Shown piece by piece: positions 4,215 through 61,400 of a stretch of 64,000 bases of DNA (positions within the stretch are counted from its first letter, which is position 1; the number at the start of each line of letters is the position of its first letter). Source of the stretch: Octopus vulgaris (Eukaryota); contig OX597825.1 of NCBI GenBank assembly GCA_951406725.2, forward strand, positions 53,320,001 to 53,384,000, read 5' to 3'. Under the pieces are notes generated by a model that saw nothing but the letters and a program-made list of their open reading frames with translations, ran no database searches and had not been told where the DNA came from. Position numbers and translations under genes: made by a program.

Positions 4215-4382
4215 AGATGAGGAATTATGCACATTATTTACATTATTTACACTTGACAGATATTTGTCCTCATCTTGTTTGTTGTTAACACAACGTTTCG
4301 GCTGATATACCCTCCAGATTTTATCAGGTATATTGGGGAAATTTCGAACCTGGGTTCTCATTCCTAAGGTATTTTTCGATAT
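4215..4382 (-). mobile_element. PLE terminal-repeat-like non-coding repeat with minimal HHR (family A, copy 1)
   Basis: Reverse complement of 5665-5810 and same orientation as 55181-55325; minus strand has CTGATAA..CTGGAGGGTATATCAGCC GAAAC GTT GTGT at 4287-4332. Confidence 0.75.
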
Positions 4383-4491: not shown

Positions 4492-4498
4492 GCCCGTG

Positions 4499-5623: not shown

Positions 5624-5663
<40 letters not shown>

Positions 5664-5664
5664 C

Positions 5665-5810
5665 CGACAAATACTTTAGAAATGAGAACCCAGGTTCAAA
5701 ATTTCCCCAAGACACTTGATAATGGCTGGAGGGTACATCAGCCGAAACGTCGTGTTAACAAGCAAGATGAGGACAATTATCCGTCGATTGTAAATAATGT
5801 AAATAATGTA
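5665..5810 (+). mobile_element. PLE terminal-repeat-like repeat (family A, copy 2)
   Basis: Inverted relative to 4215-4382; contains the HHR at 5711-5756. Confidence 0.75.
5711..5756 (+). ncRNA. minimal type I hammerhead ribozyme motif (U3:A8 core)
   Basis: GACAC TTGATAA T GGCTG-10nt-CAGCC GAAAC GTC GTGTT: stem I GACAC/GTGTT, stem II GGCTG/CAGCC, GUC triplet. Confidence 0.7.
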
Positions 5811-7724: not shown

Positions 7725-9059
7725 AAGTTATAATTATTGCCGACAAATTACAATACTTTGAAGTCGTAGCTACGGTAACACTGTAGTCGCAGGGATTTTT
7801 CCTTCACGACTACACGGCATAGAAGAGGTTGGAAAAATATCAGTTTTGCGAATCTCTCTCGCGTACAAGTCCTTTCCGTCCCCACATTGCGTATAACCTG
7901 CCAATACTGAGGCACAATCTTGACAACAGCGAAAGGTTGTGAGCATACCTAATGTTCTACACTTTAAGACTCGTCCTTGTTCTCCAATATGCAGTGGCCC
8001 TAGCCTATTAGCAAATTATGACAGAGGTTCGGGGATTGCATTTACATTCCAACATCCAATTTTGGAACAAGGTATGCTATCCCAGAATCCGCATTTCAAG
8101 TGATAAAGAGATATTGCTGTGTCCTTCTACCAATTTTACCTCTAGTACTTGCTTTAAGATCATATCGATTTGTTCAGATAGCCAGAGATATGATATTTGC
8201 TTGATGTAGTTTATGACTTCTGATAAATAGGTGTTTCCGTTGGTCACAGTTTTCTAGCTTACAGATCTTTTCTGAGTTAAGTCATTCATGTTCAACATCT
8301 CTCATTAGTTAGCAACGCTAGCAAACGAATGTTGATAGCCAAGCTTGTGTCACTCAAAGCAACACCGTTACTCATTAAAATTTGCTTGTTTTTATTTTTC
8401 CTTTGGTAAAATGCACATGTGTATGCTTCAATAGCTGTGGATTTTGTTGGTAAAACTAATTCTGAAATTGCTTTGAACTCTTAAAATATGATCATGCTTT
8501 TAGACTTGCCATAAAATGTGTTTTATTGCTTTTGTGTCTCCTGTGTGCTATAAAGCTCATCTTCATATTTTAAGGCCTTTTCTCTAAAAAAAAAGTGATA
8601 TTGATTTGGAATGTTAACAAAGAGATAAAAATATGATTACCTCAAGTATAGAGGGTCTAATATGTCCCCCGAAACAGAGTAAACAACCACCAGGTTTCAG
8701 AATCTTCCTTGCTCGGAATTTCCAACAAGAAATATTTTTCTTTCAATTGTACTAAAGAATCCAAATTACTCTATGTGAGCTAAAATCTTGTCTCTTACTA
8801 AATTTCAATGCTTCTTTCTTCCGATTGTCCACTGACCAATATGCATATGTGTGTATGTGTACATGTATGTATGTATGTATGTATGTATGTATGTATGTAT
8901 GTATGTATGTATGTATGTATGTATGTACATATATGCTTATAATGTACATAGTAAGAAGTTCTATGACACGTAGAAGTGCGGTTAAAATATCTGAAGGCAA
9001 TAGGAATTGGAAACGAATCAATACATAACAAAAATTATTAATTTTTTATTAATTAAATT

Positions 9060-9600
9060 TTTATATGGATTCGATTTACAATTTCAATTTTCAAAACAAA
9101 AACTAAAATAATACACTTAAGTGTCATCGATTTCGGGTTATCAATTCTAGATTTCCATCATCAAAAATACTTCTTCAAAATAAGGCAAGTAAGTCAGAGA
9201 TAGATCAAATATTAGAATCTAATATGAACCAATTTTCCTATATCTTTTATTTCTTATTTTTAATTCATTCTTCTACATTTAATCATTTTATTTCATAGAT
9301 TTTGTGCTTTTGGTTATATTTTCGGGTTATATTTTTTCTTCACGAAGTCGAAATAACTTTGCTACACACAAAACCGTATATGTTTAATTACCAACATTTT
9401 TCATATACTCTTCATTTTCTCCAATCTTGGAGACGGCGGGAAATTGGATTTCATTTCAAGAACGAATATTTTGGGAAACAGATAAAGCGATGTTATTTTG
9501 GGCTCGGCTCTACTGAGTTTGGCCTCGTATTTAACTATGAAAAAATATTCACTTCCTGTAAGGATATTTCTGTGTGCCAAATTGGTAACAAAAGATGTCA
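9060..9600 (-). mobile_element. decayed PLE 3' fragment with degenerate HHR
   Basis: Minus RNILTGSEYFF resembles PFLLEGSEFTF of the PLE at about 41540; degenerate TTGATGA..GAAATCGAT motif at about 9121-9176. Confidence 0.4.
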
Positions 9601-9937
9601 GCCGTTGCGCAGAAACACTGATACAGACATACAAGCACACACACATACAAATACATATATGCATGTTTATATTCTTGCATGTACGTATACATGCGTTGAT
9701 GAGTGTGTGTACAGATATGGAAAGGATAAGACAGAAACCTACATACACAGTAAAACAGACACAAAGACACACATACATATACGCATGCGTATGCATAAGT
9801 GTGTGTGTATGTACATATGTATATGTGAAAACAAATATGCATACATAGATACATACATTTTATATTATATATATATATATACGTATATGTAAATATATAT
9901 ATATGTACATAATATATATAATATATACATATATAAC

Positions 9938-10700
9938 TCCCAATAGTGTTTAAAAGACTGCGAGCTAAAAACAGTAATAAGATACCTAATCAATATTTTT
10001 CAAAGGAAATATTTTATAAAGAAGATCCCTACTATAACAGTAGCTTAAAAGCGGTTTACGAGATAGGATATCATACAAACCTTCAGGTGAAAATACAAAG
10101 CCTGAAATAGACAACCAAAGGAATGATATGTTTCATCCCGCCATTTTCTTCTTAAATATTAAACCTAACATCGTCAAAAAATTTCTGACATTATTAAATA
10201 AGCATTCCTTAGTAAACCTCAAATACTTGAAGTTTCTTAATGGATACTTGATAAAAAAAAAACACAGGGTGCTATTGCCTCCATGTAAAGGTCATTAACA
10301 CCCACAAGTCGCATTAAGAGCCGACGCCAAGTTATATTTGTTGAAAACCTGAAACTTGACCGCTCGAACAAACGTGAATCATAAACTCAGCTGCTTATTG
10401 AGCAATTGTTTAAAGCCATAATGCAAACCAGCACTCTTTCAGACACATTAATAAAAATATAGCCAGTAAGTTGGCTAACCATGTATATGATCTGAAGACA
10501 GACTGCATACCACATACAATCAAGTGAAGAAACGTGGAATAATTTACGCTATATATAAATGGATGAAAGTAATGGAAATAATGTGAAGTTGATAGATCGT
10601 GTATTGTTTTTTAGATTCATTAATTCCACCAAAAAAATTAATTTTATAAATGAAATATTTAGCATATCAAAATACATGGATAAAATTCATTTGTCCCTCT
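9938..10700 (+). mobile_element. decayed PLE, RT-thumb to GIY-YIG region (Naiad-like)
   Basis: LNIKPNIVKKFLTLLNKH (cf. NVKTNIGKxFLxLIDKHF) and QHSFRHINKNIASKLANHVYDLK; many frameshifts. Confidence 0.6.
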
Positions 10701-10986
10701 CAAGATTGAGTCGTTATCTTACAGACTTTGCTCTCCTTTCCGATATATTACTCTGAACTAGCTAGATTGATTATAGCATTTATAGTAGAAAAAAGGGGAC
10801 GCAGAGCTTCGTTTTCTCACTTTTCTTTCTCCTCGTTCTACTTTTTACTATCAAATTTTTAGTTTTATTGTTGCTTTTTTTCTCCTTCTATGATTTCTCT
10901 GAGACCGGCTTCCTCTTTTTCAAATAGGCCTAACATTATGCACTGAGACTGTAGTATTGCTTCGAGACACAAGGCACGTTGACTAC

Positions 10987-11050
<64 letters not shown>

Positions 11051-11106
11051 TGAATCTATATACATTTACATATATTTAGATGTACATGTATATATTGGTA
11101 CACGGT

Positions 11107-11927
11107 GCGTAAGTTATTTGAGGACGAACAATTTTTGGGTCATTGCTGCATCTTTCGTCTACAAAGTTTGTAAGAAGCTAGAGACTGAAGATGGAGACGT
11201 CTCACTAGTATCAAAGCATAAAAAACATTCTAAACACTTTGAAAACATAAGAACACCTGAATTTATCCAGCACTTCAGCAGACCATTGATTACAATCCCA
11301 GAAAGTCCATAAGGTCAGTTGCAAATGATTTCCGTGTGTCAGAAAGAACAGTCAGAAATGTTGTCCACGAAGACATCACTTAGAGCTCTTATATCATGAG
11401 GAAAGGTGGTGTATTTGTCAGAAAAAGTGAAAGAAAATCTCTACATCAGATCTAAGAGGCTAATAATCAAATTGAAAAATCCAACAGAAGTTTTGATTTG
11501 TTTTTTCTCAAACGAGAAAAACTTCGACCAAGATCAAAAAGTTAACAGAAGAAATGACAGATGGTTATGTGCAGATCCTTTTGAAGTTCTAAGTTTTATA
11601 TTTACAAAATTTTCTGCAACTGTCATGATTTTATGGATTGTCAGCAATGAAGAACATGTGATCCCTCCTTACTTCTTTCTACAAAGCCTTAGAGTCAAGT
11701 CTGCTGCCTACCTTGGGGTCCTTGAAATAATTGTTGAGCCCTGGATAGACAGTGTTTGCAATATAAGGCTATATGTGTTTCAGTAAGACTTTGCACTATC
11801 ACACATGGCTCTAGTAACACAGGAATGGATGATTGAAAATTTTGATGATCACATAACTCGTAACATTTGGCCTCTTCATTCTCCAGATCTCAATCCATTG
11901 GAGTATTACATGTGGAGCTTTGTTGAG
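11107..11927 (+). mobile_element. maT/DD37D Tc1-mariner transposase pseudogene
   Basis: VSERTVRNVVHED, FFSNEKNFDQDQKVNRRNDRWL, YVFQ*DFALSH, WPLHSPDLNPLEYYMW; truncated by the Helitron array. Confidence 0.85.
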
Positions 11928-12631
11928 AGTCCGAGAGAAAGTAAGAGTAAGAGAGTGGGAAAGTGAGAGAGAAAGGAGAGAGAAACAAAGAGGAAGAATG
12001 TGGTGATAAAAAGCAGAAAGAAAACAACAGAAGGTAACAACCACACTCTTACCCGCGCGTAGAGCGGGGCACCTTAATCTACTCAATATCTATAAATCTG
12101 AAATGTGAAAAGTTTGTTTGTCTGGTTTTGGCATTGGAACGGGTTAGAGGCCACTAGATCCCGTCGGATTGACTCCAAAATTTACAGGGACATGTAAAAT
12201 GAGGTGAGAATGTCAGTGGGCTAGGTTAGAAATTCCTATCTTAAAAGGTGTCGTTACTAGGGCAAAAAACGCACACATGACAATTCTCCTCTCATTCTCT
12301 CATCTGCATGTCTTCCTCCGTCTCTCTCTGTTTCCTCCCTTCTCATTACTTTCACTCTATAACGACGTTTGACAGACACTACTATCTTTCCCCCGCCGGC
12401 TTCGCTAGCGCTGTCCCTCTTTCCCCCCACTGCCTCCCCTTCTCTCTCTCTCTCTCTTTCTCTCTCTGTATGCATTCATAGAGTTTTATAATCACCACCA
12501 CGACCACCACACAATCATGAGAACAAATATTATGAATCAAATATTTATTGGGTTAATTTATATATGTTTGTGTGTATGTTCCATATATAAATATGTATAT
12601 ATAATGTATATATACGAAGTGTATATATCTG

Positions 12632-12679
<48 letters not shown>

Positions 12680-12748
12680 GTATACATTTGTATATATAAT
12701 GCGTACACGCACGCACACGCACACATATAGATATATATATATATAATG

Positions 12749-12784
<36 letters not shown>

Positions 12785-14035
12785 GCATTATATATATATA
12801 ATGTGGGCATTATGTGATCGGTTGAGCTGAAAATAGGACAAAATTACTCATCTTATAAAATGTGGCCCGAGTAGACCTGAATGAAATAGGGTTATATTAA
12901 CCAAAATGTGAAAAGGGGTCTAAATGGGGCTGGAAGGGGGATTAAAATTTACAGGAGCGGGTGTTTAGGAATTCAGCAAGAATTACAGCAAGCTAAAAGA
13001 TTTGCGCCAGCCTTTAAATCTTCAACGTGTTGCCGTCCATGATGAAGAAGTTTTGAATGCTTGACTTGGTGAGTATACTGTCGTGAGAAAGAATCACTTA
13101 AAAACTTGGTGTTTAGGAATTATCTTTTACATCAAATTGAAAATTTTACGTTGCTGTTCGTCGTTAAGAAATTTCAGCCATGGTGACTCTACTATCTTTA
13201 GATTCTATCCCTTCAAACTTTTGTTTCCAATATATTTTAATTTTTATTCAGCTCGCAAGTTATCTGTCCCTTTTAAACGTTAGTGTTTTGCTGTCTGCCT
13301 TGAAGCAGACCTTTCCATAGTCACTGCCTGATATTTATGATTGATCTTTCAAAATATTTCTCTTTCTCAAATTACTCAAGATTTTTGTTGTTTATATGTG
13401 GGAGAGAGATAGATGGAGAAAGATAGAGAGTAAGAGAAAGCGAGGGAGAGTCCGAGAGAAAGGAGAGAGAAACAAAGAGGGAGAATTTGGTGATAAAAGA
13501 CATAAAGGAAGCAACAGAAAGTAACAACCACACTCTTACCCGCGCGTAGAGCGGGTCACCTTAAGCTAGTCTGATTCATAATATTTGCTCTCATGATTGA
13601 GTGGTGGTGGTGGCGATAATAAAACTATCTAAGAATGCAGACAGACATACAGAGAGAGAGAGAGAAAGAGAGAGAGAAGGGGAGGCGGTGGGGGGAAAAG
13701 GGACAGCGCTAGCGAAGCCGGCGGGGGAAAGATAGTTATGTCTGTCAAACGTCGTTATTGAGAGAAAGTGATGGGAAGGGAAGAAACAGAGAGAGACGGA
13801 GGAAGACATGCAGATAAGAGAATGAGAGGAGACTTGTCAATGTGTGCGTTTTTTTCCCTAGTAACGACACCTTTTGGGATAGGGATTTCTAATCTAGCCC
13901 ACTGACATTCTCACTTCATTTTACATGTCCCTATAAATTTTGGAGTCAATCCGACGAGATCTAGTGGCCTCTAAACCGTTCCAATGCCAAAACCAGACAA
14001 ACAAACTTTTCGCATTTCAGATTTATAGATATTGA
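11925..14035 (+). mobile_element. non-autonomous Helitron array: 3' stub, putative full copy 12083-13569, inverted 5' copy
   Basis: 3' hairpin CCCGC-GCGTAGA-GCGGG followed by CTAC at 12079-12082 and by CTAG|T at 13566-13570; 5' end TCAATATCTATAAA at 12083; 13572-14035 is the reverse complement of 12083-12540. Confidence 0.8.
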
Positions 14036-14273
14036 TTATAGATAACAACTCGGGCTGTAACTTCTGAGCACCAGTCAGACGCGCGTAAACGATGCCGTGA
14101 GAACGTCTGCAACGAATTATATTTTTTGACACAGGGTATCTCTAAGACGACAGCGAGATGCTGAACCAAAATAAATGAACTGTGACGAGGCTCAAGAAAA
14201 GGAGCCCAAGTTATTAGCTGCAATTGCATATTTAAAATCAGTTTCGGTAGAACTTAAATAAGCTTGCAAATAG

Positions 14274-14493
14274 ACTCTTTACTCTTTTACTCTTTTACCT
14301 GTTTCAGTCATTTGAATGTGGCTATGCTGGAGCACCGCTTTTAGTCGAGGAAATCGACTAGTACTTATCCTATCGCTCTCTTTTGCCGAACAGCTAAGTT
14401 ACGGGGACGTAAACACACAAGTATCGGTTGTCAAGTGATGTTGGGGGAGAAAAACAGACGCAGAAACACAGACACAGAAACACACACACACAC

Positions 14494-14526
<33 letters not shown>

Positions 14527-14610
14527 CACATATGTACGACGGGTCTACCAAATCCACTCACAAGGCTTTGGTCGGCCCGAGGTTATAGTAGAAGACACTT
14601 GCCCAAGATG
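14274..14610 (-). mobile_element. octopus tRNA-derived SINE (OK/OR-type), partial
   Basis: Reverse complement of the 48694-49096 copy (TGTTTCAGTCATTTG..GCTGGAGCACCGC..TTTTGCCGAAC). Confidence 0.8.
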
Positions 14611-15234
14611 TTCCTTTCAGTTTCTCTCTACTAGATCCACTTACGAGGCTTTGATTGGTTCTGTGATATACTAGAGGATGGTCGATTAGTGATTAGTAAA
14701 ATAATATGCTGATGGTGTTAAAATAGAATTTTTCATCTTGCAAAGGTGTGGACCTGCAAACAAAATCTCTTACAGTCTCTTTAATTGGTTTATCGAAATT
14801 TTGTCAAATAATTTATGACCTATCTCTCCTACAAGGAGTGGAGTCAACGATTTTCCCAACAATTTTGTAAGTAAAGTTTTGAGTAAATATTAGATTTATA
14901 TGTCTGACTATTATTTAATAACAGATGCTCAACATCAGATGTTGAATTATAACTTTTGTCTCCGTGACACATATCTTTTGAAACAGTGACAAATGACTTT
15001 TTAACTACAAGCATCTTCAAATGAAGCAATATGGAACTAAATGAGTACACAATATAATAACAGCTTCCTGTCGGTTAGTATTTAATTACTACGTCTATGG
15101 ATGTGACTTTTACACATAACTGATTTTTAATTAACGAGAAAACTAAATTTGTTTTTACAGCTTTAAAAGTGTCAAACAATTCTATCGGGATTTAAGTAGA
15201 AATACTTGGTAACATGATCTCCAACGAGCTTACA

Positions 15235-16472
15235 TATTAGAGCTGATAAATATGAGAAGTTTTCATTGAAGATTTCCCCTGACCAACATCCGGTTATTGC
15301 AGGAAACGGGAATTGTACAGGTATTATACATGTCTCTACCTGTCACATTGTAAATTGCAGCTTTCGACTAATATTCTTTTGTCTTTCACGGATGTTGATG
15401 TGGACTAAGGTGTTAAAATGGAGGCAGTTGAATGCAGGTCAGTGATCAGGTTTTTATACTTGAAAGGTCGTACACCAAAGGAGACTTTTGATGAGATAAA
15501 TGAAGATTATTAAGATGCACCATCATACGATGTCAAGCACTCGCATTGCCAGTTCAAATGCGATCGAAAATCGGTGGGAACTGCTACTATTTCTGGACGA
15601 CAGACAACATTCCACCAGTGATGATGACACCATCCATAAAGTGGAAGCCGCCATTTTGGAGGATTGGAGGATCATCACAAGGAAGTGAAGATAAGTGTTG
15701 GGTCCGTGGAAAAAATTATTCACGATGCTTTGCACAAGCAGAAGCTGTCTGCGAGATGGATTCCCCGGATGCTCACACCTTTTAAGAAGCAGGAACGAGT
15801 CAATTGCTCTCAGGCGATTTTGGTAACGTGCCAAGAAAACGAGGGAGACATTTTCTGGAAATGTAACACACGGTGAAACATGGGTGGGTCCATCACTATG
15901 TTCTTCAGACTAAAGTCCAGTTTAGCAATGGAAGCATGATAAGTCACCACCTCCAAAGTAGGTTCAGGTCCAACCCTCGGCAGGCAAGTTAATACTCGCA
16001 GTCATTTGGTATCAGCGTGGAGTGGTGACGATGGATTTTCTGGCAAAGGTCACCACAATTAGCGGGATATATTATAATGCTCTGCTGCAGAAATCGCGGG
16101 TGGCCATCCAATTAGAGAGGCGTGGAATACTGACCAAAGGAGTTCGCCTCCTCCAAGAAAACACCTCTCAATGCTCAAGTTCCCCAGATTAAGGCACTCC
16201 ACCCCCACGTCTATGAAAACCTTCATTCTTTTTCTTAATCTCCTGGCCTCACACTATCTGACTTCCGCTTCTTTCCAAACATGAAGCACTTTTCGATGAT
16301 GATGAATTATTTTTCGAGGTAAATTCTTGGCTCCAGACGCAACATACCGGCGATGGGAGAAGTGGGACACTATGAAGAGAATGATACTTGAGATGGTTAT
16401 AACTATGTCGAGATTCGTTTATCCCAGTCCGTGCGATGTGGGTCGGCGGAAATCTTTAATGAACAACCCTCG
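15235..16472 (+). mobile_element. mariner (Hsmar2/irritans-like) element, near full-length, inactivated
   Basis: MEAVECRSVIRFLYLKG from 15418, KLSARWIPRMLT, GETWV, PSAGKL, KGVRLLQEN; 3' TIR GAACAACCCTCG|TA. Confidence 0.88.
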
Positions 16473-16483
16473 TATATATATTT

Positions 16484-16535
<52 letters not shown>

Positions 16536-16554
16536 ACATATTCTTTTGTGGTTT

Positions 16555-17027
16555 TTACTTGTTTCAATCATTCTACTGCGGCCATACTGTAGCACTACTT
16601 TGAAGGATTTTAATCGAACAAATTGACCACCAGGATGTATTTTTGAAGCCTAGTATTTAATCTATCGACATCTTTTGCCGAACCGCTAGGTTACGTAAAC
16701 ACGCCAACAAGGTTTGACAAGCAATGAGGGGGACAAACACAGACACAAAGGCATACACACGCACATACACCTCTCCCACATGCATACACCTCGCTTCACG
16801 CACATACATATATATACAGATACGAAATATATACACACATATACCCTATATATGTATATATACACATATACAACTGGCTTCGTTCAATTTCTGTCTATCA
16901 AATCCACTGACAAGTTTTTGGTTGATACGTGGCTATAGTAGGGGACACCCAAGATTCCACACATTGGGACTGAACCCGGAAACATGTGATTCGGAAGGAA
17001 CCTTCTTACCATCAGACACGATTGCGC
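16555..17027 (-). mobile_element. octopus tRNA-derived SINE, diverged
   Basis: Similar to the reverse complement of 48694-49096, including the head GGGACTGAACCCGGAAACATGTG. Confidence 0.75.
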
Positions 17028-17061
17028 TTAATCAGTCTCGTATATATGCAAACCCACACAT

Positions 17062-17108
<47 letters not shown>

Positions 17109-17230
17109 CATGTATGTACTTATGTATATATACGAGACTGATTAGGCGAATATATATATATGTATGCATGCATATATGTGTGTATATATATATATATGTG
17201 TGTGTGGGTGTGTGTGTGAATATGTATATA

Positions 17231-17261
<31 letters not shown>

Positions 17262-17404
17262 TTATATATAGTGACGCATATTTGCCATTTGAATATGGCT
17301 AACCCTTTAAGGGTGGATGCTACTGTAGTTTGTAGCCCCAGGAAGATATCTCCTCCAGCTGGCTATAGACACACTATCTGTGTCCTCTCAGTATTTGTGA
17401 AGGG

Positions 17405-17443
17405 GACCCGAGTTTCAAGGTGTTTACCTTTCATCAGTGTGTG
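17405..17443 (-). ncRNA. HHR core (family B), truncated at the cleavage site
   Basis: Minus CACACA CTGATGA AAGGT-AAAC-ACCTT GAAAC TCGG GTC; the 3' strand of stem I is missing. Confidence 0.75.
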
Positions 17444-17753
17444 ACAATCATGAGTTGAAGACGGGGAGGATGACTCCCTTTCACAAATACTGAGAGGATA
17501 CAGATAGTGTGTCTATAGCCAGCTGGAGGAGATATCTTCCTGGGGCTGCAAACTACAGTAGCATCCACCCTTAAGGGGTTAGCCATATTCAAATGGCAAA
17601 TATGCGTCACAATGTGTTACCGCTACTGTTTATAACTCGCTCTGAGATTTATCATTGTTTGATTTCACTTTTTCAATATCAGTGTCAATCGACACTGGAA
17701 AAAGTATATGTATTTGTGAAGGGAGCTGACTTCTCGTCGACAACCATGATTGT

Positions 17754-17798
17754 CACACGCTGAAGATTGGTAAACACCTTGAAACTCGGGTCCGTGTG
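17754..17798 (+). ncRNA. type I HHR (family B)
   Basis: CACACG CTGAAGA TTGGT-AAAC-ACCTT GAAAC TCGG GTC CGTGTG: perfect 6-bp stem I and GUC site; base of stem II mismatched. Confidence 0.8.
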
Positions 17799-18006
17799 TA
17801 TCATGAGTTGAAGACGGGGAGAATGACTCCCCTTCCCAAATACTGAGAGGACACATATAGTGTGGCTATAGCCAGCTGGAGGAGACATCTTCCTGGGGCT
17901 ACAAACTACAGTAGCATCCACCCTTAAGGGGTTAGCCATATTCAAATGGCAAATATGCGTCACGATGCGTTACCGCTACTGTCTATAATTCGCTCTGAGA
18001 TTTATC

Positions 18007-18065
<59 letters not shown>

Positions 18066-18126
18066 ATATATCCTATACAAAATACACCTGTGTATGTGTG
18101 TGTGGATGTATGTGCGTGTGTATGTT

Positions 18127-18255
18127 TCCCAGAGGAGTGTTTCTCCAGGATAGGACTACACAGCCACAGCAGGAAATGTATCAGGACATGATTGTAAAAG
18201 CTGGACTAGACTACTTTATGCGCAACTCCATTGTCTCCCGAGACAAAAAGGATGC

Positions 18256-18267
<12 letters not shown>
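18127..18267 (+). mobile_element. RTE LINE 3' stub, same family as 4611-5598
   Basis: ECFSRIGLHSHSRKC plus 3' UTR CTCCATTGTCTCCCGAGACAAAAAGGATGCC(AAC)n. Confidence 0.85.
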
Positions 18268-18315
<48 letters not shown>

Positions 18316-19219
18316 TCCTATACAAAATACACCTCTGTATGTGTGTGTGGATGTATGTGCGTGTGTGTGTTCGCTTTTTAGGTGAAAACACCTGCAGGAT
18401 TTGCTTCCATACATGGGATGCATGAATAATTTGACCTCGAATACCAATTAGGCTCTTCAATTCATTATTATTTTTTTTTATTAGAAATAAATAATATTGC
18501 TTTATATATATTTTTCGCTTCTTTCAAAAGGTTTCTCAATGTCAACTTCATTTGCGAAATCCCACATCTATATTTTAATATTTTCCTTTCAAGTTTTAAT
18601 TCGCTATTTGCAAACGCTACGATATATTACTGACAGAAATATTTACCAAGTTCACAAATTTCGCTTGAATCTGCTCACATTATTAACTTCCGTTAAAAGT
18701 TTTTAATTATTTAATTGTTGCGCGCCGATTTCAGTTCTATGTATTTATGGTCAGTCACACTCGCACATATGTGTATTTGTATGTACTTTGTATACATTTA
18801 TGCCTGTGTGAGAGAGAGAGACAGAGACAGACAGGCAGACAGACAGACAGGCAGACAGACAGACAGACGGAAGGGATATGTTGTCATGTATACGTACATA
18901 CATTAATACATATGCATACATCTTTTTTTGTATGTGTATGTGAGAGGGAGACAGAGAGGTTAGACAGATAGAGAGGGAAAGAGAATGATATCTAAGTGGC
19001 ACGCTCTCGCTTTCACTCACACACACGCACACATACGTACAAAAAAAGATGTATGCATGTTAATGTATGTACGTACAAAATACAACACGAGCCTTCACTC
19101 TCCCTCTCTCTCTCTCGATCTCACATGCACGCTCGCGCGTCCATTTCATCTGATGTTTGATGCTGTATCTATATGATATTTACGTAACTTATTTCTTTCT
19201 AATCCCCATTATAATTTTC

Positions 19220-19830
19220 AAGGTTGTCAGTGAGAACTTCTCCAACTCTGTTAACTCTATCAATTATGTTTGCAAATATATAAACATAAGTTTAGATGCT
19301 GCAACATACATTCTTATGCAGAATGGCAGTCAGCAGATAAATAAAAATGATGACGCTGCACAGTATGACAAAGTATGATACATCAGTACCAATGAGGCTT
19401 TTTCACACATCTTCAAATTTCTCATTCATGAGGGGCACCCAGCCATTATTCACCTGAGTCTCTATCTAGAGAATGACCTCAGGGATATCTTTACAAAACA
19501 AACGGCCTTGTTGCAAACAAGCACGTTCTCCAATAGAAACTACTCTTACTGCATTTTTTAAAGTTTTGTCAAGTAGATGAAGATGCAAGAAAAGTACTTT
19601 AGCTACAATTACCCAAGTATTACACCTGGAAAAACAATAAATGGCACAAGAGGAAACCAGATCTCTAAAACAATTTTTTTTTATGAAGCACTGCTTGAAA
19701 ATGCGGAACAGGTTTTGACCATGGGAGGTAAAACTTTGTAATAGTCTGGCTCTGAACTGCTAAAAATAAAACTTTTAGTGATTTAACTTCAAGAAACATA
19801 GCAAGAGATACAATTGTCTGCATTTGTTAA
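19220..19830 (+). mobile_element. Helitron Rep/helicase coding fragment (pseudogene)
   Basis: NSVNSINYVCKYINIS..YISTNEAFSHIFKFLIHEGHPAIIHLSLYLEN..TTLTAF..LPKYYTW matches the Helitron pattern SIKYICKYVNKG..RYISSNEA..IHERxP..HLEN. Confidence 0.8.
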
Positions 19831-19967
19831 TGAATATAAACATGAATTTCCTCCAGAATAATGTTATCCACAACAAAATATGCTTCAACACCCGAACTCA
19901 CATAAAGAATATTGCAAACCAAATCCACAGACGAAATATATACATACATACATGCATACATACATAC

Positions 19968-20016
<49 letters not shown>

Positions 20017-20022
<6 letters not shown>

Positions 20023-20652
20023 AATAATAAAGGGTAAAAATAAATAATTAATAATTAATAATTTTATCAAGTAGTTCGGTATGTTAAAATAACTTTTTCC
20101 GGCAACCTTATACAAAACTTCTATAATTATAATCATAATTACAAATAGGGTTCAACATATGACATCATCACATACCGAAATTTAGAAATAGCAGTTAAAT
20201 ACTATTCCTCTACTATAAGATATCTCCCAAACACCAATCCTCTTATTTTACGTAGGTAAGGATTAAAAATAACGAATCTACCCGGATTTGATTAACCACA
20301 TAGGCGTTTCTGGATTAAAGAGATGTAATTTTTTTATTTTTAATTATTTATTTCCTTCTTCAGTGTAGTATTTGAATTGTAAATTTGAGCGTACTAATAA
20401 TTAAATACGTATTCGACAAAGCGACATCGAATAACTAGTATCCAAAAACCAGCACTTCCGAATATATGCAGACGAGTGAGAAATCACATCATTCCCCAAC
20501 CACCCTCGTGTGTTACGAGTAATGCCGCAGAAAACTGCACTTTATTATCAGGGAGTGAATTATATTTTCAATAATAATCAAGGGTAAAATTAATTAATAA
20601 TTTATAAGTAGTTCGGTATGTTAAAATAACATTTATCGGTAACCTTATACAA
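20017..20652 (+). repeat. approximately 90-bp direct repeat, 550 bp apart
   Basis: TTCAATAATAAT..AAGTAGTTCGGTATGTTAAAATAAC..AACCTTATACAA at about 20017 and about 20567. Confidence 0.75.
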
Positions 20653-38219: not shown

Positions 38220-40400
38220 TATTGATTGCCAACCTCCGGCCTGTTGTTAATTTGGGGCCCTAGTCTGTGTATGACTATAGCTTCCTTAATTCTGAAATTA
38301 CCCTAATTTATTTTATTGGTCTTAATTGTGACTTCTATGCTTTTGTCGGTGTTCCGGCATCTGTCTAGATGTTTTCTGAAGGAGGAGGTTGAAGTATTCG
38401 GATGTACTTTGATGCGGACGTGTAACGGTCTTGTTGTGCTACCCACATAGAACTTGTTGCATTTGTTACATTGTATTCTATACACAACAGTCACCCGTTG
38501 GCATAAATCTGTGTCACGGATGGGACAGTTTGTTAGTGTACATTGATTGTTGTCCCTTTGTTCGTTTCTTTTCGAGCCGTTCCCTCTATGCTATCTCCTC
38601 TCTTTTTATGGCTTTTCGGATGGATGTTGTTACCCTCTCACTAAAATGAGGTATTTTAAGGAAGCATGTGTTGCTGATTTTTCTATGTTTGGCGTGATGG
38701 TCGTCTTGAATACTTAAGCCGATTTACAATGGATCTAGCGTACCTGTTGGTTTTCAATATATCTAGGAAGCGTGTAGGGTGGGTCACCTTGTCCTCTACG
38801 AAGCACCGTTCTGCTGCACGTACACTGGATGCGTGCAAATTCATTTCAGGCGTATCCTATTCTGGAAGCGCTGAATTGTATTGGACAAACATTTCTCTAC
38901 TGGCTGCTTTCCTGGAGAACTCGGTGTGGATCTCACCTGCTTCCGTTATATTCAGTTTGAAGTCAAGTAGTGATAATAATTCAGCTATATCTGGGTGTTC
39001 TATAGTGAACTTTATGTTATTGAACGTCGTGAATATTCTGTCAGCCTCTTCACAGGAGGATGTGAGTATGAGGATGTCATCTATGTACCTGGTGAAGAAG
39101 GCGCATGAGCGGCAGATGTTGAGAGTTCGACGTTCCATATGGTTCATATAGGTGATGAGCAGTAGGCCCGAGACACTGGATCCCATGGGTAGACCTGTTG
39201 TCTGTTTGTATATGTGTTCCTGAAAAGAGATGTAGGTGTTGTCCACCATGATGGACAAAAGTTGATGAATATCAGCTGCGGTAAATCCGAAGCGTTGGAT
39301 GTCGGACGCTATTGTGCAGTCAGTCAATAGGTTGACCGCCGAGTATGCTGGCACCATTGTGTATATTGAGACAACGTCAAGACTAAAGGCATATCTGTTT
39401 TGCCTGATTTGGTCTAGGGGCAATTGGTGCAGTCTTTTGATGACTTCGTCGGAATTCTTGACGTGTCTAGGAAAGGTGGAGAGTAAAGCAACCAGGATAT
39501 TTTATATACAGGGCCTCCACGCTGGGGACGAATGGTCTAATCTGGATCGTCTTGCTATTCATGTGCGTTTTAATGAGGTGATAAAATCTGATTAATCTAC
39601 TGTTCTTTTTGAGGAAGTTCTTGAATTTATTATGTATGTCTCCGTTTATAGGTGTCCGTCCATGCAGTGTTAATTCGGTCCCCAAACCCTGGTCGCAGTT
39701 ATATCTGTCTCTTCAGAATATAACCTGTCATTGCTTAAATCTTCTAGTGCCAGTCTATCATATATTTCACAAGAAATCACACAGATTTTTTTCTTTTATC
39801 TGATGGTAAGTATACAAGATTTTTGTTTTTTAGTTTGGTTAGTGTTTTATAGTGCACCTTGGTTAAGTTTGGAGTTATTTTCGATTCCTTCCTGTTTCAA
39901 TCTGGATACTTTGTGGTTGAGTTCTGGGTTAGTTGGGGGTGGGTGGAGTGAGTGGTCTAGTTGGTACGTGGGAAAATTCCCGAGTGTGTTGTTGTTCTTT
40001 TTCATCACCGATAATCATTTGAGTTGGTAGGCTGTTCGACAAAAGTTGGCCTCCAGGTCGAATAAAACTTTTTCATTCGGCTGTTGTCTCAAGATAAATT
40101 TAAGGCCCAGACTGAGAGTTTCTAGTTCTTCATGGGAGAGTGACTGACTCAAGTCTGTGACTAGGGATTTCGTTGCTGATGGTGTGCTGGCGTCTTCGGT
40201 ATTAGTGTTACTTCGTTCGGCGGACGTGTCCTGTTCATCTGTGTCGGTGTAATAGGCCGAGTTGTGTCGGTATTTGGTACAAAACCACTAGAATTTAAGT
40301 TTGAGGCGTTTCTTCTTTATGTCAACGCATGGGTGGTAGCATCGGTCAATAGCTGCGATTGTTCTTCAGTATGGATGTTCAATGGTTAACGTAATGCTGG
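38220..40400 (-). mobile_element. Penelope/Poseidon-type PLE, near full length, inactivated (RT and GIY-YIG)
   Basis: LSHEELETLSLGLKF; SLDVVSIYTMVP, YKQTTGLPMGSSVSG, RYIDD, FTIEHP; VVYRIQCNKCNKFYVGSTTRPLHVRIKVH. Confidence 0.92.
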
Positions 40401-40410
40401 GTATTATTTA

Positions 40411-41030
40411 AGAGAATTTGCGTGGAAGGCCCTCTATATAAAATACCCTGGTTACTTCCACTCGGTGCCAAAATAGGATACGCCAGAAATGAACTTGCAC
40501 CCATTCAGGGTATGTGCAGCAGACAGAGGGCAAGGTAACCCACACTACACGCTTCCTAGATATATTGAAAAGCAACGGGTACCCTACATCCATTGTAAAT
40601 CGGCTTAAGTACAAAGACGACCAATGCACCGAACACAGAAAACCAAGCAACACATACTTCCTTAAAATACCCCCTTTTAGCCATAAGAGGAGATGAGCTA
40701 GCATACATATAGCCTACTCTGGCCCCTCTCTGAGAGGTCACCACGCAAAGAAACGAACAAGGAACGACAATCAATGTACACTAACAAACTGTCACACCCG
40801 TGACACAGATTTATGCCAACGGGTAGCTGTTGTGTATAGAATACAATGTAACAAATGCATCAAAGTACATCTAAATACTTCAACCTCCTCCTTCAGAAAA
40901 AATCTAGACAGATGCCGGAACACTAACAAAAGCATAACAGTCACAATTAAGGCCAATGAAAGAAATTTAGATAATCTAAGAACTAAGGAAGCTTTACTCA
41001 TACACAGACTAGGGCCCCAAATTAACAACA
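40411..41030 (+). mobile_element. inverted, internally deleted 3' copy of the same PLE family
   Basis: About 40476-41030 is a diverged reverse complement of about 38240-38860; 40415-40462 mirrors 39479-39522. Confidence 0.85.
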
Positions 41031-42400
41031 AACCTACAGACTCACAACAATACCTCCTCTTTAGTTCATGCCACCCAAAACACACCAAGACAAATATCCC
41101 TTTCAATTTAGCTAAAAGGGTATGCACCATTGTCTCGGATCCAAAAACACGAGAAATACGCCTTCAAGACCTCAAAAAACACTATTACAACGTCAATATC
41201 CCTCCACCCTTATAGAGTATGGAATAAAACGCGCCAAAGAACTAGACAACACTACACTGAAAACCAGCCAACCTAACACCACACACAACCTCAAAATATT
41301 TCCATACATTTCCACCCACAACCCCAAAAATATCGAAGCATACACCACAATCATACAAAACCTCAGTCTACTGTCAACAGACCCAAAAATGAAAAACATT
41401 ATAAATACACACAAAATCCTCAAATGCAAAAGCAACACAAATCTTTAAAAAAACTCTTGACAAATGCCAAACTTCACACACCACATCCACCCCCAACAGT
41501 AAAAAAATGTGCACGCTCAAACTGTGGTACCTGCCCCTTTCTACTTGAAGGCTCTGAATTTACCTTCAAACAAGGTACGAAGTTTAAAATCAAGACTAAC
41601 TTCTCCTGTTCCTCCGAGAACCTTATCTACGTTCTCACATGCGCTGGTTGCCAACATAATTATGTTGGACAAACGAGTCTCCCGTTACGTAAACGAGTAA
41701 CGGTGCATAAAGAATGCATTCATCACTTCAAGCTAAAACTTATATTCTTTAAATATCATTTTTACTATTGTTGTTATTACTATCATTTTTATTATAAATG
41801 ATATGACAATTTGAAATGCAATTGTCTATGCAGATTTATATTATTAGAAAATAATATAAATAAAGTGTTAAAATCTGAAAGTTAAGTTAACAAGCAATTA
41901 TATAAAAAAGATAATGCAAATGAAGCTAAAATGATAGTTTTATAATTTGGGTTTTATTGAAGAACTCAAAAGAGTTGTCTCCCCTTACTCACAACACAGG
42001 AACTGAAGAACCAGGACCACAATTACTACTACTTCCTGTCCTGCAAACATGCTGAATTTAACAACACAACACAACACATGCTCTTAATCCCTTTGGATCT
42101 TAACACCTCAAGGTAATTTTTTCGTAAACAACCATAAAACTCAAGATACACAACGAACTCACAATGTATCGGAGAAGTTATTTTTTAATTTTTGTACATT
42201 TTTATCATTATTCTTTTACAAAAAACAATGCAATTTTCTTTTTTTCCCCTTTCTAATTTTTAAAAAAACTTCTTAAAACATAGATATTCTTGACAAGTCA
42301 TACAATGACGAAAACCGGTTGAATAAATATATATTTATATATTTTATCAATTTCTCATTTTATTAAAATTTTCTTTCATTTGAGCATTCTGCATTTAAAA
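41031..42400 (+). mobile_element. Neptune-type PLE 3' half (thumb, Cys-rich linker, GIY-YIG, 3' UTR with HHR)
   Basis: KPTDSQQYLLFSSCHPKHTKTNIPFNLAKR, CARSNCGTCPFL, NLIYVLTCAGCQHNYVGQTSLPLRKRVTVHK. Confidence 0.88.
42285..42325 (+). ncRNA. minimal HHR (U3:A8 core) at the PLE 3' end
   Basis: TATTC TTGACAA GTCA-TACAA-TGAC GAAA ACCGGTT GAATA: stem I TATTC/GAATA, stem II, palindromic AACCGGTT. Confidence 0.7.
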
Positions 42401-49764: not shown

Positions 49765-50168
49765 ATATTGTTATATTTCGGAATGGTCATATTGCCAGTT
49801 TAGCCAATAAAAACACACGCACTATATATTTGGTGTTATTTTGCTTCAGTGATATTTATTTTTTACATTAATCTTAATCTTATTTCGGCCAAAAGTTCTT
49901 TCGTCACACTCCTGTGACCGCATCAGTGGTCCTTTGTTTTCTTCTCACTTACTTGTGTCTCTCCTTACTAACCGGTTAGTAAGGAGAGACACAAGTAAGT
50001 GAGAAGAAAACAAAGGACCACTGATGCGGTCACATGAGTGTGACGAAAGAACTTTGGCCGAAATAAGATTAAGATTAATGTAAAAAATAAATATCACTGA
50101 AGCAAAATAACACCAAATAAATAGTGCGTGTGTTTTTATTGGCTAAACTGGCAATATATTCGAAATAT

Positions 50169-55180: not shown

Positions 55181-55325
55181 AACATTATTTACATTTGACG
55201 GATATTTGTCCTTATCTTGTTTGTTGTTAACACAACATTTTAGCTGATATACCTACCAGCCTTCATCAGGTGATTTGGGGAAATTTCGAACCTGGGTTCT
55301 CATTGATAAGGCATTTTCCGATGTT
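55181..55325 (-). mobile_element. family A HHR repeat, copy 3
   Basis: Minus CAC CTGATGA A GGCTG..CAGCT AAAAT GTT GTG at 55229-55273 (GAAA mutated). Confidence 0.75.
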
Positions 55326-58152: not shown

Positions 58153-58311
58153 CATTATTATTATTATTATCATTATTATTCGCCAAGATAACATGGCAGT
58201 ACAGAAAAATAGGACGAATTCTGACATTGATTAGCTCCAAGAGGTCATAGCCTCTAGCTAGCTAACCCTCCGAACAGGGTAGGTCAGCCGCTTCCCCTTA
58301 ATGGTCTGGCA

Positions 58312-58354
58312 TCTACAGACTAGTTTCAGGGTATTTGCCCCTTGTCAATGTAGA
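58312..58354 (-). ncRNA. type I HHR, U3:A8 core (family G); second copy 60290-60332
   Basis: Minus TCTACA TTGACAA GGGGC-AAAT-ACCCT GAAAC TA GTC TGTAGA; copy 2 TCTACA TTGATAA GGAGC-AAAT-ACACT GAAAC TA ATC TGTAGA. Confidence 0.78.
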
Positions 58355-58379
58355 GTAACTGAACCCAGCAGGCGTCGCT

Positions 58380-60004
58380 TAATCTTTATTATAGGAACAA
58401 TGGCCCGAATTAAGAGGGGACATTACAATACAAGACATGAGGTACATATAATAAAAAAAATCAAAATGTATGGTATGACAATGAATTATTTGTAATGAAT
58501 TAAATGGAATGGCTTACGAGCTCACAGTTTCATTTACAATTACAATTATGTTATTCAGGACGTTCATCCGTCATGTACTCGATTAACTTCTCCTGCTCAA
58601 TAATACCTGGCAAACTGTCATACCGAATGTATTGCATTACGCCTACAGATGTATACACCTTTTCCAGCTTCATTACTGTCTCTCTTTCTACAATCGCCGC
58701 CTTCACTTGGTCGTCAGATAACTTCGGGTTCAGCTTCACTCTAATTAGACTTTTCGTATTTGTCAACTTCTTCTCAATTTCCTTGTCCTTCTTGTACAAT
58801 ATTATAGCTTTAAGATTTCTTCCTTTTGGTCTTCCTCCTTCCTTACATTTTGTCAGCTGTTCATCCACTCTTCTTATTCATTCTTCCGTTACCTGCCAAT
58901 CTGAATCTTCACTCACTTTCGTTTCTGTATCTTTCTCTTCATGCGTTCGATCATCTATCTCGTCGGTAGACTTCTTTTTAGCTTTTTTCTTATTTTGTGC
59001 TTTGGGTGGTGATTCCACCCGCGTTCTCTTTCTATCCTCTTTTTCTTCTGTTCTTTCCCTTTCTTTCTCCTTCTCGTCACCTCTTTCTACATTATCTGTA
59101 GTCACGATTTCTTCTTCCACATACGCCTTTTGTAACTCCTCTGTCAAAGCATCCAGTGTTATCGTTTTCTCTTGTACTTCTCTTAGCGGACACATATCCT
59201 TCATGTGGCCTCTAATTTTGCATTTGTAACACACTGGGGGTCTCCCCTCCACTACGACTCTGAGACGTGTCTCGTCGGGGAACACCAACTCCTCTGGGAT
59301 GTTATACAGGTCTGGCATGGTTATGTGAACCAAAGCCTGCACTGCATAACCCCACCACTTTACTTCTTTCAACTTTTCCACCTTCAGTATGTCGACACTC
59401 TCTTTGCAGTTGAATACTATTGCTGCTAAAATTCTTTCCATGTTCAGTTCCGGTGAAATTTTACTGATTCGTATTCTTCCTGCCCTTTTCCACAATAGCT
59501 ATGTAGTAACACCCATTTTTCAGTTTTCAATATTTTCGTGGCGTTCCTCTTCGCTTCATTTTCGTTTTTAAAATGAACAACTACTGTTGCGTATTTTCTA
59601 CCTCTATTGTAGAAGGTAGTTTCTTCTTCAATTTCTTGTAGACACCTCTCAATTTCCTCCACCCCTGCCGCTTCTTTTCTCTTCGAAGCCACGCTCCACG
59701 TTCTGTATGTTATAATACGCTTCTCTGCTTCTTTCGCTTCGTCTTCAGGTGATGTGACCCTCAGGCAATCACCTTCCTTCTTGAAGCTGTTGAAGTATTT
59801 CTTCAAAATCTCCTTCTCGACGTCCTCTTCTTCCAACTGCAGTTCGCTCGCAGCCAGGCCCTTGCCTGCTGCTCCCGCATAAGTTTGGGCTTGCATACCC
59901 AACAAAAACTTCAACAGTTCACCACGCCGTAACAGCTTCCACCAACGAATTCGAACTCGCAATCGCAATATACAATAACCGTAACACAAAATAACCGACA
60001 CAAA
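58380..60004 (-). mobile_element. ORF1-only (HAL1-like) non-autonomous L1/Tx1-type retroelement with 18-bp TSD
   Basis: AACCCAGCAGGCGTCGCT at 58362-58379 and 60005-60022; AATAAA 5 nt from the 3' end; one gag-like ORF and no room for ORF2. Confidence 0.8.
58551..59896 (-). pseudogene. L1/Tx1 ORF1p-like protein (about 448 codons; zinc knuckle); one frameshift near 59490 and one in-frame TGA at 58878-58880
   Basis: MQAQTYAGAA..YATVVVHFKNENEAK (RRM-like)..VEGRPPVCYKCKIRGHMKDMC (CX2CX4HX4C), charged linker, C-terminal domain in frame after the TGA. Confidence 0.78.
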
Positions 60005-60899
60005 AACCCAGCAGGCGTCGCTACTGACCGTCTTTTCGAAGGATTATTTACCTAAAATTCAGTGGAATACATCCACTGGTTTTCAAAAATAGAAATATTA
60101 ATATTTTCAAGTGTCTCTAAAGGAGACTATGCCAGCGGTGCTGGATATTAATAGTTATCGACAAGCTAACATGGCAGTCCAAAAAGTTGCAAGAGGACAT
60201 CGCCTCTAGTTTGCTATGTGACACACGACCCTGTGTCCATTATAACCTTCGAACAGGGGAGGTCAGCCGCTTCCCCTTGTGATCTGGCATCTACAGATTA
60301 GTTTCAGTGTATTTGCTCCTTATCAATGTAGAGTAACCGAACACAGCAGGCGTCGCTACTGACCGTCTGTTCGAAGAATTATTTACCTAAATTCAGTTGA
60401 ATACATCCACTGGTTTTCGTCCTATTTTTCTGAACTGCCATGTTAGCTTGGCGATAACTATTGATATCCAGTATCACTGCCGTAATCTCCTTTAGAAAGA
60501 CTTAGAAATATTAATATTTCTATTTCTGTGTGTTTGCATATATCATCTGTAAAATATAATTAAGTATCAGGTAGATTGGCAAGGGACATTAAACATTATT
60601 AACTGGAGTAGGTTGGTGGAGTGGCTTTTGTTAAGTACATATTATGCAAATGGTATAAATTACAAAAAAAGAATGGTATATTATATACTAAGGGAAGATA
60701 TAATATATATTAATATCAAGTGAGGTGTAGGGAGATTTTGAGAAAATGTTAGTCCAATATTATGTAGGTCAAGTAATTATTAGAGGAGAGAGTTAAATAA
60801 TAAATATATATCAATATAATGTAAGATAATGTGATGTGCAGAGTATGTGACGATTAATAATCGAATTCCATAGAAAGGGTTAATATATACAGATATTTA

Positions 60900-61400
60900 A
60901 AAGAAGATAAGTATATTAGAAAAAAATGGAAATGTTATTAAAATTTCAAATAAGGGGTATTGTTTAAGATTAATAAAAAGGTATTTGGTCATGTATTTAC
61001 CTGAAAAAAACTTTTTCATACCTAGTATTAACAAGATGTCCATTCATTCTCATTATATTGTAGCTTTCTTCTAAACATAACCTACAAATTTTGTTATTAT
61101 ATCTGAAAGATGGGGCTGAACATAAGATTTTCCAAGATGTTGAGTATTCAATATTGTTTCTTTTGAGTTGGCTAACATTTTTAGATAGCGCTGTACTGTT
61201 TTTTGTAGGGTCATTAATGGAATATCTATGATTATTTATTCGTGATTTTATAGAAGTTTTCTTTACCTTATACTTAATATTCACAAACGAATATTAGTTC
61301 TTACACAAACACAACACCATTTTATGTAGCTCTTTAAGCATTTCTACCCCTAACTCGTTTACATTGCAACCTCCTATATACTAAATTCACTAGTTTGATT
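60900..61400 (-). mobile_element. PLE GIY-YIG C-terminal fragment (Naiad-like)
   Basis: SIKSRINNHRYS..STALSKNVSQLK..SWKIL..CRLCLEE..LVNTRYE. Confidence 0.75.

What the first reader, a model, noticed from the sequence alone, without database searches (positions are those of the whole stretch)
58312..60332. Compensatory U3:A8 hammerhead core (UUGAYAA) recurring in unrelated families
Seen: TTGACAA at 58342-58348 (-), TTGATAA at 60320-60326 (-), TTGACAA at 42290-42296 (+) and TTGATAA at 5716-5722 (+). Each sits inside a paired stem I and precedes a stem II and GAAA. Known: C3 and G8 of CUGANGA form a tertiary Watson-Crick pair, and the U3:A8 double change restores pairing. Inference: the covariation suggests selected, active variant ribozymes that CUGANGA-based searches would miss. 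The 5716 case is weaker because its sister copies have C3.
Basis: partly seen in the sequence, partly recalled or inferred. Interest (0 to 1): 0.75.

Follow-up and report, generated by a model that had tools for sequence, protein, structure and literature searches.

The report
U3-A8 hammerheads in two octopus retroelements
Two different high-copy repeats in octopus-like DNA carry a hammerhead-ribozyme shape with a U-A pair where C-G is usual; the swap is inherited and likely leaves a slow, dimer-dependent self-cutting RNA, but it was already described in flatworm Penelope elements and cutting here is only predicted.

Summary
The four motifs are present and exceed chance (3 U3:A8 descriptor hits against 0.04 per shuffle). 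They are not four unrelated cases. 58348 and 60326 are two units of one tandem ~360-nt retrozyme-like repeat (90% identical), split by a 1.6-kb ORF1-only insert with an 18-bp duplication. 58348 is intact; 60326 is decayed. Site 42290 is a second family, the 3' end of a Penelope-like element: contigs from four runs show no other letter at 4% or more, so U3:A8 is its majority state, not decay. That majority form is also one base off canonical spacing at the cleavage junction. Site 5716 is unresolved: its sisters read C3:A8 and C3:G8. So U3:A8 recurs in two families, but statistical covariation and activity are untested. Natural U3-A8 cores are published (PMC3088659; about 1,300 hits in Schistosoma Penelope-like elements, PMC4209133), and one mutational scan found poor rescue by this pair (PMC9901934). 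This scan already noted the retrozyme family and its insert in other windows; I found no note on the 42290 family. Verdict: real, a new member of a known kind.

The parts
58312..58354 (-). Site A: intact minimal type I hammerhead fold, U3 at 58348, A8 at 58343, predicted cut between 58318 and 58317
60290..60332 (-). Site B: decayed second copy of the same hammerhead, U3 at 60326, A8 at 60321; stem II mismatch and broken stem III palindrome
   Evidence: loose-end consensus of relatives keeps CCC/CCT-GAAACTAGTC
60085..60418 (-). Retrozyme-like unit 1 (334 nt here; about 360 inferred for the family), non-coding, very high depth
   Evidence: circular fold -94.3 kcal/mol, z -3.6 against 100 shuffles
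60005..60084 (-). 5' part of unit 2, ending in the first copy of the 18-bp duplication (60022-60005)
   Evidence: 94% to 60418-60340 over 80 nt
58168..58379 (-). 3' part of unit 2, starting with the second copy of the 18-bp duplication (58379-58362), holding site A, ending in (AAT)n
60427..60528 (+). Inverted truncated copy of the unit's 3' end, placed head to head with unit 1 (Penelope-type insertion geometry)
   Evidence: 85% over 102 nt to 60084-60185; geometry as in PMC8557442 Fig. 2 legend
58380..60004 (-). 1,625-nt LINE-like insert: broken ORF1 (one frameshift, one stop; CCHC knuckle), 170-nt 3' UTR ending AATAAA, no endonuclease or RT
42284..42325 (+). Site C: hammerhead fold of a second family, U3 at 42290, A8 at 42295, junction GAAAACCGGTT one base off canonical spacing
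42113..42283 (+). Predicted intron (GT, pyrimidine tract, CTAAT, AG) ending at the first base of stem I of site C
   Evidence: read from sequence; same layout reported for D. virilis Penelope in PMC4209133; no RNA evidence
41451..41745 (+). Remnant of a Penelope-like C-x2-C linker and GIY-YIG endonuclease upstream of site C; the element ends at (TA)n at 42418
   Evidence: Pfam GIY-YIG E 0.17; Atlas GIY-YIG clusters, score 0.95
5711..5756 (+). Site D: complete minimal fold with U3:A8 in an old third family; status unresolved
4231..4378 (-). Sister of D with C3:A8 (core 4327-4321), stem II damaged
55182..55325 (-). Sister of D with C3:G8 (core 55269-55263), G12 lost

Best explanation
These are minimal type I hammerhead folds in two high-copy repeat families, a ~360-nt retrozyme-like repeat (A, B) and the 3' end of a Penelope-like element (C), whose source copies already carried U3:A8; the pair likely keeps a slow ribozyme that would cut only when two units pair through the stem III palindrome. 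Shown: folds, family membership, inheritance of U3 and A8, tandem and inverted layout. Inferred: C3:G8 went to U3:A8 by two transitions, probably through a U3.G8 wobble, which is the easiest compensatory route in AT-rich DNA and explains recurrence; multimeric transcripts of the A family would be cut after GUC into unit-length RNAs that can circularise and are copied by a Penelope-type RT/endonuclease; reduced activity is tolerated because insertion may use uncut RNA. B has decayed since insertion. Family C's majority form would need a looped-out extra A in GAAA to cut and may be weaker or dead.
For:: over 42252-42331 no other letter reaches 4% of depth in 4 of 4 runs (107, 19, 43 and 19 contigs laid); X3 record 16 spans the whole fold with 0 differences at depth 1731 and X9 record 32 at depth 3600, against 3.7-30 and 4-69 for the long pieces listed in the same runs. 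Control: window-private letters do show in this method (58300 A>G, 39708 of 40283). A and B share U3 and A8 while differing at 11 of 113 places. Unit depth 56,000-386,000 against 570-20,300 for the insert in X1. Relatives keep the palindrome and GUC (loose ends at 60279: 81, 39, 82, 49 contigs). Transitions are 288 of 424 listed changes in X1. U3-A8 natural and reported active in vitro (PMC3088659); about 1,300 U3-A8 hits in S. mansoni, and minimal forms cut only as dimers and slowly (PMC4209133); mussel retrozymes are 350-390 bp and cut at about 0.1 per min (PMC7229834); ribozyme mutants do not affect insertion by an Anolis Penelope-like element in vitro (PMC11167929).
Against: No cleavage or RNA data. 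In a full pairwise mutational scan only the G3:C8 swap rescued; all other double mutants of this region had low activity (PMC9901934). For family A I did not see the letter shares at positions 3 and 8: one search listed 40 of 597 rows, none at those places. Contig depth is biased towards the window's own haplotype, so a diverged C3:G8 sister subfamily of C could be missed. In family C the 8-bp register that leaves no N17 is predicted more stable than the cleavable 6-bp register (-19.5 against -16.9 kcal/mol). Unchecked scan notes say that sister lineages of the retrozyme spread with mismatched 3:8 pairs. No hammerhead model in Rfam scores either site at E up to 10.
Confidence: 0.62

Rival explanations
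1. Hitch-hiking, not selection: U3:A8 arose in successful source copies, but the ribozyme is nearly or fully inactive and does not matter for spread.
For: Family C's majority has a second core anomaly while a minor variant with one more T restores canonical spacing (loose ends at 42320 in 4 of 107, 3 of 19, 3 of 43, 2 of 19 contigs; at most 12% of depth there in X3). Poor U:A rescue. Ribozyme dispensable for insertion in vitro. Unchecked notes of amplified mismatched cores.
Against: In two families the changes fall on exactly the paired positions 3 and 8 and stay complementary, while U4, G5, A6, A9, G12-A14, the stems and the palindrome are kept. Natural U3-A8 recurs in other phyla.
Confidence: 0.27
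2. One origin: families A and C inherited U3:A8 from a common Penelope pLTR ancestor, so the pair did not recur independently.
For: Both have the same heptamer TTGACAA; retrozymes are reported to derive from pLTRs (bioRxiv 10.64898/2026.07.22.740005).
Against: No blastn match between A and C was seen (output partly cut); stems I, II, III and all flanks differ.
Confidence: 0.15
3. Plain decay: consensuses are CUGAYGA and each copy suffered C>T and G>A separately.
For: Possible for site D only: three copies 82-87% alike show U3:A8, C3:A8 and C3:G8.
Against: Excluded for C; unlikely for A/B, which share both letters. At D the A8 is shared with the nearest sister, so an A8 subfamily fits as well as decay.
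Confidence: 0.05
4. The two hammerheads A and B are terminal repeats that cut out the CCHC-coding element between them.
For: They are co-oriented direct repeats 1,978 nt apart around an ORF.
Against: The ORF segment has its own 18-bp duplication and AATAAA end, interrupts unit 2 between parts that are contiguous in unit 1, and has far lower depth than the unit.
Confidence: 0.06

Closest known systems
U3-A8 minimal hammerheads of Schistosoma mansoni Cercyon-type Penelope-like elements (Cervera and de la Pena 2014, PMC4209133; parts 1-2 of 4 read, supplement file 2 searched and part 1 of 3 read, file 1 not searchable)
   Same: Same core change, minimal type I fold with palindromic stem III, place in the 3' repeat of a Penelope-like element; two example families with UUGAUAA and UUGAAAA cores.
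   Different: Octopus is not mentioned in supplement file 2. Family C departs from their consensus GAAAN-palindrome-NUH by one base. Their cleavage tests used family Sm1, not a U3-A8 family as far as the legends show.
Natural U3-A8 hammerheads (Perreault et al. 2011, PMC3088659; passages read)
   Same: C3:G8 covaries to U3:A8 in several natural examples, reported active in vitro; an inserted base in the GAAA strand (U13a) is also known.
   Different: The passages I saw do not concern animal retroelements; the combination of U3:A8 with a five-base GAAAA strand was not seen in them.
Metazoan non-LTR retrozymes (PMC7229834, section 14 and passages; bioRxiv 10.64898/2026.07.22.740005, part 1 of 5 and passages)
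   Same: Non-coding tandem units of 170-400 nt, one type I hammerhead each, strongly self-paired, thousands of copies, tied to Penelope-like elements.
   Different: Neither main text mentions octopus; circular RNA and cleavage are not shown here; the core is U3:A8.
Tx1-clade target-specific LINEs (PMC4494074, passages)
   Same: Insertion into another mobile repeat with a 16-18-bp duplication; tandem copies with target sequence between them.
   Different: The insert here has ORF1 only, and its target is a hammerhead repeat; specificity was not tested on more than this copy.

Membership tests
Minimal type I hammerhead ribozyme | Canonical CUGANGA core | tested here: not met
   All four read UUGAYAA; this is the published U3-A8 variant
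Minimal type I hammerhead ribozyme | Watson-Crick pair between positions 3 and 8 | tested here: met
   U:A at A, B, C, D; majority state in family C
Minimal type I hammerhead ribozyme | Stems I and II around the core | tested here: met
   A 6+4, C 5+5, D 5+6 pairs; B has a mismatch in stem II
Minimal type I hammerhead ribozyme | GAAA, A15.1-U16.1 and H17 in canonical spacing with palindromic stem III | tested here: inconclusive
   Met at A and D; palindrome broken at B; one base off at C
Minimal type I hammerhead ribozyme | Match to an Rfam hammerhead model | tested here: not met
   No hammerhead family at E up to 10 on 58250-58420 or 42240-42360; none among the 150 listed of 217 window hits
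Minimal type I hammerhead ribozyme | Self-cleavage | not testable with these tools
   Needs in vitro assay
Non-LTR retrozyme (A/B repeat) | Tandem non-coding units of 170-400 nt, each with a type I hammerhead | tested here: met
   Unit 1 of 334 nt plus interrupted unit 2
Non-LTR retrozyme (A/B repeat) | High copy number and strong self-pairing | tested here: met
   Depth in 4 of 4 runs; z -3.6
Non-LTR retrozyme (A/B repeat) | Expressed as circular RNA | not testable with these tools
   Only contigs were offered
Penelope-like element pLTR (site C) | RT plus GIY-YIG ORF upstream on the same strand | tested here: inconclusive
   Broken GIY-YIG remnant 41451-41745: Pfam E 0.17, Atlas 0.95; no intact RT adjoining
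Penelope-like element pLTR (site C) | Hammerhead in the 3' repeat, insertion at (TA)n | tested here: met
Penelope-like element pLTR (site C) | Spliceosomal intron in the repeat | tested here: inconclusive
   GT..AG with branch-like CTAAT ending at stem I, sequence only
Tx1-clade LINE (insert) | APE endonuclease and RT in ORF2 | tested here: not met
   Absent between the ORF1 stop and AATAAA; not filed as a member, only as a likely derivative
Tx1-clade LINE (insert) | ORF1 with CCHC knuckle, target duplication, AATAAA end | tested here: met
Tx1-clade LINE (insert) | Fixed insertion site across copies | not tested
   One copy only; claimed in unchecked scan notes

The most novel reading that the evidence does not exclude
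Family C is an active natural hammerhead with two core departures at once (U3:A8 and a five-base GAAAA strand with one A looped out), kept letter for letter in a high-copy Penelope-like family across several octopus species and placed directly behind a splice acceptor, so that splicing and dimer formation set when it cuts; with family A it would show repeated selection for slowed-down ribozymes in elements whose RT copies uncut RNA.
Probability: 0.2. Interest if true: 0.5.

Novelty: new member of a known kind. Interest (0 to 1): 0.27.

Why it matters
It adds cephalopod families to the short list of natural U3-A8 hammerheads and confirms that CUGANGA descriptors and Rfam undercount them. The useful part is a ready natural series for asking whether Penelope-associated hammerheads need to cut at all: intact U3:A8 (A), decayed (B), U3:A8 with shifted junction in a majority and a canonical-spacing minority form (C), and three core states in one family (D).

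Tried and rejected
No whole genome is held, so no copy-level alignment or R-scape test was possible. Exact patterns with positions 3 and 8 left free found 0 matches in metagenome contigs, prokaryote genomes and viral contigs (family C only). No RNA holder was listed for 58200-60560; this says nothing on expression. The word-index protein search with the ORF1 core found 0 of 82 candidates at E 0.001; the full scan found 151. Pfam on 28 of the 150 listed relatives showed no endonuclease or RT domain. The hit at 53955 has no proper stem II and was dropped; 30776 (A3:U8) is at chance level. MFE folds pair the core nucleotides and do not test the tertiary fold. The GIY-YIG remnant at 61293-60997 does not align with the one at 41451 and was not shown to belong to the A/B repeat. 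Literature searches: 'hammerhead' with 'U3-A8' gave 1 paper; with 'C3U' and 'G8A' 1 paper that does not bear on the pair; 'octopus' with 'hammerhead ribozyme' 5 papers, 4 listed, none on these families by title or abstract. The Terminon paper (PMC5850863) is not held, and subscription papers on 3:8 exchanges and on dimeric Penelope hammerheads could not be searched, so rates for U3:A8 remain unquoted.

Full report
Setting. The window is microsatellite-rich animal DNA. Ten relatives of the one ORF studied were looked up by name: 9 of 10 are Octopus and 1 is Argonauta, so the source is most likely an octopod. No whole genome is held. Family-level evidence therefore comes from in-window copies and from contigs of four public runs under four organism labels.

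Observation. A minimal type I descriptor with positions 3 and 8 free returns 4 hits in 128 kb of strand, 3 of them T3/A8 (5716, 42290, 58348), against 0.04 T3/A8 hits per resampled window (100 resamplings). The descriptor was written after seeing the sites. Site 60326 fails it because of an A.A mismatch in stem II.

Sites A and B are one family. They align over 113 nt at 90.3%. On the minus strand the locus reads: an inverted truncated piece (60528-60427), unit 1 (60418-60085, holding B), the first 80 nt of unit 2, a 1,625-nt insert, the rest of unit 2 (58379-58168, holding A), then (AAT)n. Each unit lacks about 25 nt that relatives have (loose ends at 58264 and 60416), which puts the family unit near 360 nt (inference). 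In X1 the unit bins have summed depth 56,000-386,000 and the insert bins 570-20,300. Unit 1 folds as a circle at -94.3 kcal/mol, z -3.6. This matches animal non-LTR retrozymes (PMC7229834) with Penelope-type inverted geometry (PMC8557442). The insert is bounded by an identical 18-mer, ends in AATAAA, and holds a broken ORF1 with a CCHC knuckle and no ORF2; it is a later guest, not the owner of the hammerheads. A and B share U3 and A8 although they have drifted 10% apart, so both letters were in the inserted template. I did not see the family-wide shares at these two positions: one search printed 40 of 597 difference rows and none was at 58348, 58343, 60326 or 60321, which is only a weak hint. 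B's damage is private: relatives keep C at 60308 and the ACTAGTC junction (loose ends at 60279 in 4 of 4 runs).

Site C is a second family. It lies about 550 nt behind a GIY-YIG remnant on the same strand, behind a predicted intron whose AG touches stem I, and the element ends at (TA)n. Laying four runs on 42252-42331 gave depth up to 164,000 in X1 and no other letter at 4% or more at any place in any run. Contigs identical to the window across the fold have depth 1731 (X3) and 3600 (X9), about 60 to 460 times the long pieces listed for X3. The same method shows window-private letters at near 100% elsewhere (58300), so T3 and A8 are not private. Caveats: contig depth favours the window's haplotype, contigs drop rare variants, and a diverged sister with C3:G8 could stay unlaid. 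The family also shares the odd junction GAAAACCGGTT-GAATA. Read with the 6-bp palindrome ACCGGU it has U17 and one extra A in the GAAA strand (an insertion there, U13a, is known: PMC3088659). Read with the 8-bp palindrome it has no N17, and this register is predicted 2.6 kcal/mol more stable. A third reading with G17 leaves C42289 unpaired, and G17 strongly impairs minimal forms (PMC3884650, passages). A minority with one more T fits the published consensus exactly (loose ends at 42320; at most 360 of 3051 depth in X3). So the most amplified form is the less canonical one.

Site D is unresolved. Its fold is complete, but the three copies in the window are 82-87% alike and read U3:A8, C3:A8 and C3:G8. 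D shares A8 with the sister 1.3 kb away, so a U3:A8 subfamily, a C3:A8 subfamily and decay all fit; three copies cannot tell.

Mechanism. Shown: structure, inheritance, layout. Inferred: U3:A8 is reached from C3:G8 by two transitions, the commonest change class here (288 of 424 listed in X1), probably through a wobble, so recurrence needs no special cause beyond selection to keep the pair. Stem III is a bare palindrome, so cutting would need two units, as shown for other minimal Penelope hammerheads, which cut slowly (PMC4209133). For A the predicted cut is after GUC (58318/58317), giving unit-length RNA from multimers. Against strong selection: a complete pairwise scan rescued only G3:C8 (PMC9901934); ribozyme mutants did not impair insertion of an Anolis Penelope-like element in vitro, and that ribozyme cut only with its protein (PMC11167929); unchecked notes of this scan report amplified mismatched cores in the retrozyme family, which lowered my weight on selection. 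I put 0.62 on inherited and weakly active, 0.27 on inherited and irrelevant; the common-origin question (0.15) is separate.

Comparison and novelty. Natural U3-A8 was reported in 2011 (PMC3088659, passage) and in S. mansoni Cercyon elements in 2014, where a dedicated descriptor gave about 1,300 hits (PMC4209133) and two example families carry UUGA cores (supplement). Recurrence in distinct families is thus in print. I found no paper on these octopus families; supplement file 1 of PMC4209133, the bioRxiv supplements and subscription papers were not visible. This scan noted the ~360-nt U3-A8 family and its Tx1-like guest many times in other windows; my own anatomy note came before those look-ups. 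A sequence look-up for family C found no note. Verdict: real, new member of a known kind, interest 0.27; the fresh points are family C's fixed U3:A8 and its shifted junction.

Noticed in passing
window 58380-60004 (-): ORF1-only LINE-like insert in the retrozyme with a perfect 18-bp duplication. A contig at depth 131 in X1 bridges the ORF1 stop and the 3' UTR (record 1), so the ORF2-less form is shared by other copies. A joint 60004 to 58381 with 22 other letters suggests tandem inserts in a different target. Scan notes describe full-length Tx1 partners (unchecked).
   Followed up: partly
window 42310-42321 (+): Family C majority junction is one base off canonical spacing; a minor variant with one more T restores it. 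One such contig (X6 record 23) has a single other letter over 42284-42320, so it cannot be C3:G8.
   Followed up: partly
window 42113-42283 (+): Predicted intron whose acceptor abuts stem I of the hammerhead, as reported for Drosophila virilis Penelope.
   Followed up: no
window 49860-50090: Near-perfect palindrome with twin hammerhead-like cores CTGATGC, a 6-pair stem II and GAAA (50021 +, 49926 -), without canonical stems I and III.
   Followed up: no
window 17437 (-) and 20884 (-): Further hammerhead-like cores: CTGATGA with 5-pair stem II and GAAA but no canonical stem I; and a decayed CCGAAGA minimal motif.
   Followed up: no
loose ends at 60279: Relatives of the A family fall into two forms at stem I and position 11.1 (TGCAGA with CCC in X1 and X6; TGTAGA with CCT in X3 and X9); whether the 5' strand compensates was not seen.
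   Followed up: no
window 38242-41030 and 60997-61293: Other Penelope-like remnants: RT (Pfam RVT_1, E 4e-13) and GIY-YIG (E 4e-5) with an inverted partial copy, and a separate endonuclease-like tail on the minus strand.
   Followed up: no
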